Of a stretch of 64,000 nt of DNA, positions 20,338 to 29,237 are shown one piece after another (position 1 is the stretch's first letter; each line of letters opens with the position of its first letter). The notes below the pieces were generated by a model. The model did no database searches. It had not been told where the DNA came from and was given only the letters and a program-made list of their open reading frames with translations. The translations under genes were made by a program, and so were the position numbers. The stretch comes from the human T2T-CHM13v2.0 reference genome, Homo sapiens. The stretch lies in assembly GCF_009914755.1 (NCBI RefSeq), contig NC_060930.1. One strand, written 5' to 3'.

Positions 20338-20524
20338 CAGGCCAATAACTCTTAATTTGTCCCTTTGAGGCTATTTTCTACATCTTGCAGGCGTTCTTCG
20401 TCACTTTGAATTCTTTCTTCTTTTGTCTCCTCTGACAGGTATTTTCAAATAGCCTGTCTCCAAGCTCACCAATTCTTGCTTCTGCTTGATCAAATCTGCT
20501 ATTAAGAGACTCTGTTTTTTTCTC

Positions 20525-23500
20525 GGGCAAGATGGTCGAATAGGAAATGCTCTGGTCTGCAGGTACCAGCGAGACCAACACAGAAGGCGAGTGATTTCCG
20601 CATTTCCAACTGAGGTGCCTGGTTCATCTCATTGGGACTGGTTAGACAGTGGGTGCAGCCCACTGAAGGCAAGCAGAAGCAGGGTGGGGTGTCGCCTCAC
20701 CTGGGAAGTGCAAGGGGTCAGGGAACTCCCTCCCCTAGAGGGACTGTGCCGTGAGGGATGGTGCATTCTGGCCCAGACACTATGCTTTTCTCATGGTCTT
20801 CACAACCCACAGGCCAGGAGATTCCCTCGGGTGCTTATAACACAAAGGCCCTGGGTTTCAAGCACAAAACCGGGCAGCTATTTGGGCAGACACCGAGCTA
20901 GCTGCAGGAGTTTCTTTTCATACTCCAGTGGCACCTGGAATGCCAGTGAGACAGAACCACTTACTCCCCTGGAAAGAGGGCTGAAGTAAGGGAGCCAAGT
21001 GGTCTTGCTCAGCAGATCCCACCCCAATGGAGCCCAGCAAGCTAAGAACCACTGGCTTGAAATTCTCCCTGCCAGCACAGCAGTCTTAAGTCGACCTGGG
21101 AGGCTCAAGCTCGGAGCAGGGAGGGGCCACCATTACTGAGTTTGAGTAGGTGATTTTCCCCTCACAATGTAAAGAAAGCCACCAGGAAGTTTGGACTGAG
21201 TGGAGCCCACCAAAGCTTGGAGAAGCCACTGTGGCTAGACTGCCTCCCTAGATTCCTCTTCTCTGGGCAGGGCATCTCTGAAAGAAAGGCAGCAGCTCCG
21301 GTCAGGGGCTAATAGATAAAACTCCCGTCTCCCTGGGACAGAGCACCTAGGGGAAGGGGCAGCTGTGGACACAGCTTCAGCAGACTTAAACATTCCTGCC
21401 TGCCAGCTCTGAAGAGAGCAGCCATCTCCCAGCACAGCAGTTGAGCTCTGCTAAGGGACAGACTGCCTTCTCAAGTGGGTCCCTGATCTCCTTGCCTCCT
21501 GACGAGGAGACACTTCCCAGCATGGGTCGACAGATGCCTCATACAGGAGAGCTCTGGCTGCCATCTGGCAGGTGCCCTTCTGGGAAAGAACAGGCAGCAA
21601 TCTTTGCTGTTCTGCAGCTTCAACTGGTGATAACCAGGCAAACAGGGTCCAGAGTGGATCTCCAGCAAACTCCAGCAGACCTGCAGAACAGGAGCCTGAC
21701 TGTTAGAAAGAAAACTAAAAAACAGAAAGCAATAGCAAAAACATCAACAAAAAGAAAGACCACACAAAAAATCCATCTAAAGGTCACCAACAGCAGAGAC
21801 CAAAGGTAGACAAACTCACAAAGATGAGGAAAAACCAGTGCAAAAAGTCTGAAAATTCAAAAAACCAGAACGCCTCTTCTCCTTCAAAGGATCACAACTC
21901 CTTGCCAGCAAGGGAACAAAACTGGACGGAGAATGAGTTTGATAAATTGATAGAAGTAGGCTTCAGAAGGTGGGTAATAACAAACTCCTCTGAGCTAAAG
22001 AGCGTGTTCTAACTCAATGCAAGGAAGCTAAGAACCTTGATAAAAGGTTAGAAGAATTGCAAACTAGAATGACAGTTTAGAGAAGAACGTAAATGACATG
22101 ATGGAGCTGAAAAACACAGCATGAGAACTTCATGAAGCATACACAAGTATCAACAGCTGAAGTGATCAAGTGGAAGAAATGATATTAGAGCTTGAAGATC
22201 AACTTAATGAAATAAAGTGTGAAGACAAGATTAGAGAAAAAAAGAATAAAAAGTAACAAACAAAGCCTCCAAGAAATATAAGACTATGTGAAAAGACCAA
22301 ACATACGTTTGATTGGTGTACCTGAAAGTGATGAGGAGAATGGCATCAAGTTGGAAAACACTCCTCAGGATATTATGCAGGAGAACTTCCCCAACCTAGC
22401 AAGGCAGGCCAACATTCAAATTCAGAAAATACAGAGAACACCAAAAAGATGCTCCTCAAGAAGAGCAACCCCAAGACACATAATCATCAGACTCACCAAG
22501 GTTGAAACGAAGGAAAAAGTGTTAAGGGCAGCCAGAGAGAAAGGTCAGGTTACCCACAAAGGGAAACCCATCAGACTGACAGTGAATGTCTCTGCAGAAA
22601 CCCTACAAGCCAGAAGACAGTGGGGGCCAATATACAACATTTTTAAAGATAAGAATTTTCAATCCAGAATTTCATATCCAGCCAAATTAAGCTTCAGAAG
22701 TGAAGGAGAAATAAAATCCTTTACAGACGAGCAAATGCTGAGGGATTTTGTCACCACCAGGCCTGCCTTACAAGAGCTCCTGAAGAAAGCACTAAATATG
22801 GAAAGGAAAAACTGGTACCAGCCACTGCAAAAACAAATCAGTGTAAAGACCATTGACACTATGAAGAAATTGCATCAACTAATGGGCAAAATAACCAGCT
22901 AGCATCATAACGACAGGATCAAATTCACACACAAAAATAATAACCTTAAATGTAAATGGGCTAAATGCCCTAATTAAAAGGCACAAACTGGTAAATTGGG
23001 TAGAGTCAAGACCCATCAGTGTGCTGTATTCAGGAGATCCATCTCACATGCAAAGACACACATAGGCTCAAAATAAAGAGATAGAGGAAGATGTACCAAG
23101 CAAATGGAAAGAAAAAAAAAAGCAGGGGTTGCAATCCTAGTCTCTGATAAAACAGACTTTAAACCAACAAAGTTCAAAAAAATCAAAGAAGGGCATTGCA
23201 TAATGGTACAGAGATCAATGCAACAAGAAGAGCTAATTATCCTAAATATATATTCATCCAATACAGGAGAACCCAGATTCATAAACCAAGTTCTTAGAGA
23301 CCTACGAAGAGACTTAGATTCCCACACAATAATAGTAGGAGACTTTAACACCCCACTGTCAATATTAGACAATATTAGACAGAAAATTAATAAGGACATT
23401 CAGGACTTGAACTCAGCTCTGAACCAAGTGGACCTAATAGACATCTACAGAACTCTCCACCCCAAATCAACAGAATATACATTCTTCTAAGCACCACATA

Positions 23501-26979: not shown

Positions 26980-28382
26980 GATTTCAATTTTGATAAAATC
27001 CAATTTATCTAAAAAAATGCACCAGTTGATGGTTTGCTTAAATGGAGCACAATTTAAGCACTTTTTATCTGTACTTTCACTGAAGGAAATCTCACTGTCT
27101 ATGTGACCTGAATGCATATTACCTAGTGGAAAAATTCCATAAATGCAGAATAGCCTAGAGCACTCAACTTTTGCCTTGCTTTTTTTTTTTTTTTTTTAAT
27201 CAAACACAAGGGATTGCCAGGGAATAGCTCCCAAAACCATGGAACCTCTTTACAATTCTCTCTCATTTTTGTCTATCTATATTAATTATGAAACTGCATC
27301 CATTCAAATTGCTATGCTTCAACCCTGAGGAATGTAAATACAGAGGCAATTATAAAGCTGTGTTTTCTGGTGGTGCACATTTAAATGATTAGCTGAAAGT
27401 CAAATGTTAATATCACAAAATAGAAAAGTAAAATATAGTCAATGTATTTTCCCCATAGTTAATAGGCTAAATTAGAGCAAGCAATCTAACATTGCAAGAA
27501 AATTTGAATGTGGAGACTCAAAGTGTTTTTTTAACAATCTAAATGTACAACAGTAGATATATTTCATTCGCTTTAGCCTCCAGGCAGAACTGGAGGGACT
27601 GGAGGGGCAAAGATGGAAGAAGAAAATGTATGGAGATGGATTGTAGGACAAAATGTGAGTGTACAATTAGGGAGTGTAGTGAGATGAGAAGACAACTCAG
27701 GGTACAGTCCTCAACCTAAAGCTGCCAAGAACTCACAGACAGCAAGGAAATTTTTTATTTTGTAGAAATTAGCTATGAGCTCTCTTGGCCCCCTTCCTTC
27801 TCTGGGTTCCATTTCTACAAGTTGCCTCTCCTCCTCCTCCTTTTTACACCCACCCCTTCCTTTAAGTCAATTTGAACAAACATTAACTTTAAGTTTGTAA
27901 CATCTGAAATTACACCCCAGTTTTTATTTCTCATGCATTATGAAGCTATTCTGTTGAGTAATTTCACAGAGTCCAATATGAGTTGAATTGTGTGTCCTCC
28001 CAAAAATATGTTGAAACCCTAACCCATAATATCTCAGAATGTTATCTTATTTGGGAAGAAGTTCCCTGCATATGTAATAAGTTAAGATGACGTCATAGTG
28101 GAGTGGGATGGACCCCTATTTCCATATGACAGTGTTTCTATGAGAAGACAGCCATGTGAAGACACAGAGATACACAAGCAGAAGCTGGAGGCAGAGACTG
28201 GAGTGATGCATCTACAAGCCAAGGAACACCAATCATTGCCTACGCTCATGAGAAGCCAGGACATACACATGAAACAAGTTTTCCCCCAGAGCCCCTGGAA
28301 GGCACCAGTCCTGCTGACATCTTCCTTTCACACTCCTAGCCTCCAAAACAGTGAGAATAAATTTCTGTTGCTAAAAAAAAAA
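26980..28382 (+). other. L1-mediated 3' transduced segment with a second poly-A tail
   Basis: Lies inside TSD aagagactctg (20504-20514 / 28383-28393); AATAAA at 28356-28361, poly-A from 28373. Confidence 0.88.
27976..28372 (+). mobile_element. MLT1B/C LTR truncated at its polyadenylation site
   Basis: MLT1 motifs; ends gagaataaatttctgttgct + poly-A and lacks the terminal ~55 bp of the LTR. Confidence 0.8.
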
Positions 28383-29237
28383 AAGAGACTCTGAGGCATT
28401 CTTCAATATGTCAATTGCATTTTTCAACTCCAGAATTTCTCCTTGATACTCTTTAATTATTTCAATTTCTTTGTAAAATTTACATGATAGGATTCTGAAT
28501 TCTTCTCTGTGTTATCTTGAATTTCTTTGAGTTTCCTCAAAATAGCTGTTTTGAATTATCTGTCTGAAAAGTCACATCTCTCTCTCTTAGATTGGTCCCT
28601 GGTGTCTTATTTACTTCATTTAGTGAGGTCATGTTTTCCTGGATGCTCTTGATACCTGTGAATGTTTGTTGGTGTTTAAGCATTGAAAAGTTTGATATTT
28701 ATTGTAGTCTTCGCAGTCTGGGCTTGTTTTTACTCATTCTTCTTAACAAGGCTTTCCAGGTATTCCAAGGGACTTGAGTATTGTGATCCAAGTTTTCGGT
28801 CACTGCAACTGTGTATGCTTTAGGGGGCACCCCAAGCCCAGTAAGGCTGTATTTTCTGCAGACTCATGCAAGTAATGCCTTGTTGGTCTTGGATAAGATC
28901 TGGAAGAATTCTCTGGATTACCAGGCAGAGACTCTTCTTCTCTTCCCTTACTGTCTCCCAAACAAATGGACTCTCTCTCTCTCCCTCTGTGCTGAGCTTC
29001 CTGGAGATGGGGGAAGGGTGACATGATCGCTCCTGTGGCCATCACCACTGGGACTGTGGTGGATCAAGCCTGAAGCCAGCACAGCACTGAGTCTTGCCCA
29101 AGGCCCACTGTCACCACTACCTACATACCACCTATGTAATAAACCACAATTTTGTGTCTAGGAGACAGAATAACTAATGAAACAAGCATAAAATAAATAG
29201 ATTTTATTATATATAGGGAAACAAGTAAATGCTTATT

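What the first reader, a model, noticed from the sequence alone, without database searches (positions are those of the whole stretch)
20504..28393. Full-length L1PA7 carrying a ~1.4 kb 3' transduction terminated by a captured MLT1 poly(A) signal
Seen: the 11-bp TSD aagagactctg (TT/AAGA endonuclease-type site) flanks not the L1 alone but L1 + 26980-28372 + a second poly-A, and the host L1MA resumes right after it. The L1's own end reads agtataaaaaaa with no AATAAA. The transduced DNA ends 11 nt after the AATAAA (28356-28361) of an MLT1 LTR that is cut off there. Established: L1 read-through to a downstream polyadenylation signal produces 3' transductions. Inference: 26980-28372 is foreign to this locus and tags the source element, and the much older MLT1 is nested in a younger element only by hitchhiking.
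Basis: partly seen in the sequence, partly recalled or inferred. Interest (0 to 1): 0.7.

Follow-up and report, generated by a model that had tools for sequence, protein, structure and literature searches.

The report
Ancient L1 transduction with vanished parent
An old human LINE-1 retrotransposon on chromosome 6 carries 1.36 kb of DNA copied from chromosome 12 and shares a short tag with a sibling copy on chromosome 5, while the parent element that likely made both is missing from the chromosome 12 site; it is a tidy example of a known process, not a new one.

Summary
Real, known mechanism, richer than first read. The 11-nt TSD (20504-20514, 28383-28393) bounds a 7,879-nt insert. The older host L1 is contiguous across it in 13 of 14 paralogous copies. 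Bases 27013-28372 match chr12:46,907,253-46,908,598 (minus; 8.6% substitutions), where the MLT1-type LTR runs 48 nt further. So the 3' transduction ends 11 nt after the LTR's AATAAA, as claimed.

Corrections:
(1) No parent L1 sits at the chr12 junction. It reads like an empty endonuclease site.
(2) 26980-27010 is not from chr12. It is a 31-nt piece of an old antisense L1 plus a second A-run, likely from an earlier round of transduction.
(3) A 5'-truncated sibling on chr5 (78,953,525-78,953,880, minus; 18-nt TSD) has the same tag and junction but stops about 150 nt into the chr12 DNA.
(4) The L1 is 5'-complete but not intact: a younger LTR fragment (25942-26338) replaces about 305 nt of ORF2.

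Best reading: a serial, 'parentless' transduction family about 30-42 Myr old whose source never fixed. The name L1PA7 is recalled, not tested. No outgroup genomes were available. Interest 0.3.

The parts
20338..20503 (-). Left arm of the older host L1 (L1M-type by recall)
   Evidence: Aligns directly adjacent to the right arm in paralogous host copies
20504..20514 (+). 5' copy of the 11-nt target-site duplication, preceded by TT
   Evidence: single copy in uninterrupted host paralogs
20515..25941 (+). Primate L1, 5' end to most of ORF2: T-rich 5' junction, 5' UTR, ORF1 and ORF2 broken by stops and frameshifts
   Evidence: 5' end matches other full-length copies; Pfam PF02994 and PF17490 (ORF1) and PF00078 (RT) above cutoff, endonuclease families below cutoff; fragmented ORFs
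25942..26338 (+). 5' 397 nt of a 590-nt LTR, inserted later into ORF2; its 3' 193 nt and about 305 nt of ORF2 are gone, the join sitting on a 4-nt microhomology TGGA (26335-26338)
   Evidence: 4.5-5.9% K2P from 9 other copies, none of the 9 sharing these L1 junctions
26335..26972 (+). End of ORF2 and 3' UTR of the L1; ends without AATAAA
26973..26979 (+). First A-run (7 A)
26980..27010 (+). Tag T1: 31-nt piece of an old antisense L1 family, with GATAAA at 26992-26997; shared with the chr5 sibling, absent at chr12; likely a first-round transduction
27011..27017 (+). Second A-run (7 A in both offspring; the last 5 are the A5 at the chr12 site)
27013..28372 (+). Tag T2: 1,360 nt copied from G000:C12:46,907,253-46,908,598 (minus)
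   Evidence: 1,309 aligned columns, 113 substitutions, K2P 0.092; the unique part has only this one other copy (2 of 2 candidates)
27976..28372 (+). MLT1-type solo LTR (name recalled) inside T2, cut 11 nt after its AATAAA (28356-28361); 48 nt longer at chr12
   Evidence: 24-29% K2P from 5 other family copies
28373..28382 (+). Terminal poly(A) tail
28383..28393 (+). 3' copy of the TSD
28394..29120 (-). Right arm of the older host L1
   Evidence: 18-21% K2P from 5 paralogs

Best explanation
The block 20515-28393 is one L1 insertion, bounded by a target-site duplication, whose tail holds 1.36 kb copied from chromosome 12 and ends at an old LTR's AATAAA, and it likely came from a parent L1 that once sat at the chromosome 12 junction and likely never became fixed. 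Steps: (1, inferred) An ancestor L1 lacking AATAAA at its end sat in an old antisense L1, read 31 nt past its end and was cleaved 13 nt after GATAAA. (2, inferred) That RNA inserted at the chr12 site TGT/AAAAA, making the parent: L1 + A-run + T1 + A-run. (3, products shown, transcription inferred) The parent read through again and gave at least two offspring: a 5'-truncated one on chr5 ending 22 nt after CATAAA, and this 5'-complete one ending 11 nt after the LTR's AATAAA. (4, absence shown, cause inferred) The parent allele was lost and the empty chr12 allele survives. (5, structure shown, order inferred from divergence) A younger LTR later inserted into ORF2 here, and a microhomology-bounded deletion removed its 3' third and about 305 nt of ORF2. 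The element is a dead fossil with no sign of function.
For: TSD, endonuclease-type site and poly(A). Host contiguity in 13 of 14 paralogs. A single source for the unique part, with no non-repeat flank shared between chr6 and chr12. Both offspring lose similarity to chr12 at the same base and share L1 end + T1 + A7, so the join existed as DNA before either inserted. No L1 at the chr12 junction; the only same-strand L1 within 9.9 kb upstream is a 373-nt fragment 5,740 nt away without T1. The chr12 junction matches 6 of 7 positions of the TTTTT/AA consensus quoted in PMC13141329. Each of the three 3' ends has a hexamer 11-22 nt upstream, within the 10-30 nt range in PMC13009371. Neither offspring has AATAAA at the L1 end, whereas 7 of 13 unrelated ends listed do. 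Age order by K2P: terminal LTR 24-29% > host L1 18-21% > transduction vs source 9.2% > internal LTR 4.5-5.9%. Parentless transductions are explained by unfixed parents in PMC13141329 and PMC13009371; precise deletion is called exceedingly rare in PMC8567694.
Against: No repeat spans the chr12 junction among the 40 of 737 candidates scored (mostly Alu tails), so I cannot show that it is an untouched site and not a deletion joint. The second A-run is only 2 A longer than the A5 at chr12, short for a young unfixed parent. GATAAA and CATAAA are weak signals and such hexamers are common: 11 hits of 12 variants in 1.5 kb. No grandparent was found. chr12 has another AATAAA 424 nt into T2 (AGTAAA on chr6), so the LTR signal may not have been the first canonical one; this cannot be polarised without an outgroup. 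The chr5 and chr6 L1 ends differ by 11.5%, hardly less than either differs from the unrelated chr12 fragment (12.8%, 14.2%), so L1 sequence alone does not prove kinship; the shared tags do.
Confidence: 0.75

Rival explanations
1. One round only: T1 was native chr12 DNA just upstream of T2, the parent L1 was fixed there, and a later deletion removed the parent, T1 and some flank.
For: The second A-run is short. No grandparent found. Nothing spans the chr12 junction to prove it is intact.
Against: In the old-L1 copies printed, T1-like sequence mostly continues T-rich, whereas here it stops at an A-run 13 nt after GATAAA. The chr12 break falls exactly on an endonuclease-type T/AAAAA, and chr12 upstream of the junction shows no T1 or old-L1 continuation.
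Confidence: 0.12
2. Serial transduction as in the best reading, but the parent was fixed and later excised precisely by recombination between its TSDs.
For: It gives the same empty site.
Against: Precise deletion is described as exceedingly rare (PMC8567694 passage).
Confidence: 0.06
3. The 373-nt L1 fragment 5.7 kb upstream on chr12 is the remnant of the source, joined to T2 by splicing or later rearrangement.
For: Same strand, similar 3' end type, no clear TSD.
Against: T1 does not follow it. There is no AG acceptor before T2. It reads CTAG where both offspring read CAAG.
Confidence: 0.04
4. Not a transduction: T2 reached chr6 by DNA-level duplication, repair capture or an RNA template switch.
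For: No L1 at the source junction.
Against: T2 lies inside the TSD and ends at AATAAA + 11 nt + poly(A). No unique flank is shared. A second insertion with its own TSD has the identical junction, which independent template switches would not give.
Confidence: 0.03

Closest known systems
Partnered L1 3' transduction (PMC12350158, PMC9311842, bioRxiv 10.1101/2021.07.12.451456; passages seen)
   Same: L1 + internal A-run + unique DNA + second poly(A) inside one TSD, traced to another chromosome; 82% of L1 transductions are 3' and 8.8% of polymorphic L1 insertions carry a transduction.
   Different: Tens of millions of years old and presumably fixed, not polymorphic L1HS; two stacked tags; 1.36 kb is long next to the mostly sub-100-nt tags in PMC13009371.
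'Parentless' transductions in dogs (PMC13141329) and 'proxy elements' (PMC13009371); passages seen
   Same: The source DNA has no adjacent L1; only 3 of 27 dog cases had one. Truncated offspring carry the tag of a source absent from the reference, like the chr5 copy.
   Different: There the parent is still polymorphic in living populations; here it would have been lost long ago.
L1 transduction families with lineage progenitor, donor and daughter (PMC6425141; passages seen)
   Same: Several generations linked by 3' tags and internal poly(A) tracts; donor absent from the reference.
   Different: That family is L1-Ta, active, with a known progenitor; here neither parent nor grandparent was found.
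MaLR (MLT1C) LTR poly(A) sites adopted by host transcripts (PMC2553571; passages seen)
   Same: Sense-strand LTR supplies the whole poly(A) site; MaLR is the top LTR family, 292 of 639 LTR-linked sites.
   Different: The user here was an L1 read-through RNA, fossilised as DNA, not a gene.

Membership tests
L1 partnered 3' transduction | One TSD flanks L1 plus extra DNA | tested here: met
L1 partnered 3' transduction | Terminal poly(A) with a signal 10-30 nt upstream | tested here: met
   AATAAA 28356-28361, 11 nt, A-run
L1 partnered 3' transduction | Endonuclease-type cleavage site | tested here: met
   TT/AAGA at 20502-20507
L1 partnered 3' transduction | Extra DNA maps to another locus that continues beyond the cut | tested here: met
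   chr12, LTR 48 nt longer there
L1 partnered 3' transduction | Progenitor L1 directly upstream at the source | tested here: not met
   None at the junction, no full-length L1 within 9.9 kb; this places it in the described 'parentless' class
L1 partnered 3' transduction | Empty site in outgroup species | not testable with these tools
   No other primate genome held; host-repeat paralogs used as a stand-in
Serial (two-round) transduction | Two tags from different loci separated by an A-run, shared by siblings | tested here: met
   T1 absent from chr12, shared by chr5 and chr6
Serial (two-round) transduction | First tag traced to its own source locus | tested here: inconclusive
   72 non-family places within 3 mismatches; 0 of 28 examined have a young L1 end upstream
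L1PA7 subfamily | Diagnostic 3' UTR positions versus the L1PA6/7/8 references | not testable with these tools
   No repeat library; the assignment agrees with my recall only. The end is closer to the chr5 and chr12-upstream ends (11.5-14%) than to two other L1PA ends (19-22%)
Full-length L1 | 5' UTR start present | tested here: met
Full-length L1 | Uninterrupted body, intact ORFs | tested here: not met
   LTR fragment, about 305 nt of ORF2 missing, many stops
MLT1 (MaLR) solo LTR | Match to the library consensus | not testable with these tools
   About 457-nt multi-copy element, 24-29% diverged, AATAAA near its 3' end; name recalled

The most novel reading that the evidence does not exclude
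A poly(A)-signal-less L1 lineage left a three-generation paper trail in which both the parent (chr12) and the grandparent were active but never fixed in our line, and the chr12 parent survives in some other primate lineage. That would make this locus a 30-40 Myr old incomplete-lineage-sorting marker and a template for a genome-wide census of 'ghost' source elements, directly measuring how often ancient active full-length L1s were purged while their offspring fixed.
Probability: 0.15. Interest if true: 0.55.

Novelty: new member of a known kind. Interest (0 to 1): 0.3.

Why it matters
Modestly. Every step is an established mechanism. The value is as a well-resolved ancient case: one lost source, two offspring that used different poly(A) sites, a stacked tag from an earlier generation, and an LTR poly(A) signal caught in use by a fossil RNA. 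Collected genome-wide, such parentless families would let one count active L1s that were lost from the lineage. No gene or functional element is annotated in the window (hub annotation), and I found no sign of function.

Tried and rejected
Grandparent search. A 34-letter pattern with up to 3 mismatches gave 74 places, 2 of them the family. 28 of the other 72 were examined and none has a young L1 3' end upstream; 44 were not examined. Gapped exact patterns gave 5, 2 and 15 places. Only chr5 and chr6 carry T1. The three extras were an L1 followed by unrelated DNA, a non-L1 site and an old antisense L1 itself. Exact anchors have low sensitivity at this age, so further siblings are not excluded.

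A repeat spanning the chr12 junction was not found (40 of 737 candidates scored).

The idea that the internal LTR fragment was inherited from the source was rejected: it is younger by divergence, and 0 of 9 examined copies (of 39 non-self hits) share its L1 junctions. The top hits bias this divergence low.

The T-rich 10 nt at the 5' junction do not match the chr12 flank, so a 5' transduction was rejected. Two of 8 relatives have a similar pyrimidine-rich start.

The three-way comparison of the shared 145 columns gave 8 private differences on chr6, 1 on chr5 and 3 on chr12. Several of the 8 sit beside a 12-nt gap, so I draw no rate conclusion.

Szak 2003, Pickeral 2000, Macfarlane 2013 and Khan 2006 are not held and were not read. 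A search for serial or nested transduction wording returned 0 papers at 4 of 6 terms; that was a strict search and does not show the idea is unpublished. I recall it being described. I ran no literature search for this locus by coordinates.
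Full report
OBSERVATION. The 11-mer AAGAGACTCTG occurs twice in the 64-kb window, at 20504-20514 and 28383-28393; its chance per site is about 2e-7. The left copy follows TT and precedes a T-rich 10-nt junction and an L1 5' end. The right copy follows a poly(A) that begins 11 nt after AATAAA. The flanks belong to one older L1. Aligned separately to 14 paralogous host copies (of 39 non-self hits), they abut with gap 0 in 13 and -2 in one, each copy holding the target motif once. 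So 20515-28393 (7,879 nt) entered as one insertion. Pfam confirms L1 ORF1 domains and a reverse transcriptase in the broken frames; the endonuclease matches fall below cutoff and the last stretch has no match.

SOURCE. Searching the genome with 26980-28372 gave, among 40 of 1,960 candidates scored, one long match on chr12, one short match on chr5, and otherwise only matches to the terminal LTR. The unique part 27200-27975 has exactly one other copy (2 of 2 candidates). Window 27013-28372 aligns to chr12:46,907,253-46,908,598 (minus) over 1,309 columns with 113 substitutions (8.6%; K2P 0.092) and 15 gaps. On chr12 the LTR runs 48 nt past the cut, through a GU-rich stretch to its natural end. 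No non-repeat flank is shared, which excludes a segmental duplication.

NO PARENT. Upstream of the match chr12 has no L1. The junction reads TGT/AAAAA, 6 of 7 positions of the endonuclease consensus quoted in PMC13141329 (passages). The only same-strand L1 within 9.9 kb is a 373-nt 3' fragment 5,740 nt away. It is not followed by the family tag and differs from both offspring at a CAAG/CTAG site.

SIBLING AND SECOND TAG. chr5:78,953,525-78,953,880 (minus) is a 5'-truncated L1 of about 150 nt. It is followed by an A-rich run, the same 31-nt tag as window 26980-27010, a 7-A run, and the first ~150 nt of the chr12 DNA, all inside an 18-nt TSD with one mismatch. Both offspring lose similarity to chr12 at the same base. 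The 31-nt tag is absent from 20 kb around the chr12 site and is a piece of an abundant old L1 family read antisense. The simplest account is two rounds of read-through: a grandparent gave the tag, ending 13 nt after GATAAA; the parent landed on chr12 and produced offspring ending 22 nt after CATAAA (chr5) and 11 nt after the LTR's AATAAA (chr6). Neither offspring has AATAAA at the L1 end, against 7 of 13 unrelated ends listed, which suggests an inherited weak terminator. The grandparent was not found.

INTERNAL DAMAGE. 25942-26338 is the first 397 nt of a 590-nt LTR family (426 candidates, 40 scored; my recall places it in the LTR10 group, unverified). Against two other L1 copies, 304-306 nt of ORF2 are missing, and the join lies on TGGA shared by LTR and L1. 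The fragment is 4.5-5.9% from its nine best relatives, none sharing the junctions, so it likely arrived after the L1. 'Full-length' is true only for the 5' end.

AGE. The K2P order is terminal LTR 24-29%, host L1 18-21%, transduction versus source 9.2%, internal LTR 4.5-5.9%. PMC2671141 (passages) dates L1PA7/8/8A to 30-42 Mya; PMC7449397 (passages) puts L1PA7-3 at 30-10 Mya. By recalled primate divergences, 9% between two paralogs fits the 30-42 Mya span. The L1PA7, L1MA and MLT1 names match my recall and were not tested.

RESULTS AGAINST. Nothing proves the chr12 junction is an untouched site. The second A-run exceeds chr12's by only 2 A. Variant hexamers are common here (11 hits in 1.5 kb). 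chr12 has an earlier AATAAA 424 nt into the transduced DNA, read AGTAAA at 27427 on chr6. The short L1 ends alone do not group chr5 with chr6 convincingly (11.5% versus 12.8-14.2%).

COMPARISON WITH WHAT IS KNOWN. 3' transduction by read-through to a downstream signal is standard (passages of bioRxiv 10.1101/2021.07.12.451456; PMC9311842; PMC12350158; PMC13009371). Sources without an adjacent L1 are described as parentless and attributed to unfixed parents (PMC13141329), and truncated tagged offspring of absent sources as proxy elements. Multi-generation families are described in PMC6425141 (passages). Sense MaLR LTRs, MLT1C among them, are known poly(A) donors (PMC2553571, passages). Precise excision is called exceedingly rare (PMC8567694, one passage). 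Passages of PMC9252281 and PMC13192797 added nothing decisive. The T2T catalogue lists 183 top-confidence L1 3' transductions; its supplement was not seen and may or may not hold this locus. I make no claim that the locus is unpublished.

VERDICT. A real transduction (about 0.97 by my estimate). Serial origin with a never-fixed chr12 parent is the best account (0.75). New member of a known kind; interest 0.3.

Noticed in passing
window 25942-26338: Sense-strand LTR fragment inside L1 ORF2; LTR 3' third and about 305 nt of ORF2 removed at a TGGA microhomology.
   Followed up: yes
window about 20220-20337: A short antisense Alu piece sits between two parts of old L1 sequence; host paralogs align only from 20338 onward, suggesting a deletion or a separate L1 piece to the left.
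   Followed up: partly
window 27808-27848: 41-nt pyrimidine-rich stretch present on chr6 but absent on chr12; no other copy in the window; direction of the change unknown.
   Followed up: partly
L010 5739-6111 (G000:C12:46,914,338-46,914,710, minus): 373-nt L1 3' fragment of similar type with no evident TSD, 5.7 kb upstream of the source junction.
   Followed up: partly
L009 1-1612 (G000:C12:46,899,000-46,900,611): Another L1PA 3' part with a 5' inversion, about 6.6 kb beyond the source LTR.
   Followed up: no
G000:C17:46,393,091; 47,176,036; 47,393,262; 47,897,619; 65,748,099: Five identical 34-mers among the pattern hits, probably copies within chr17 segmental duplications.
   Followed up: no
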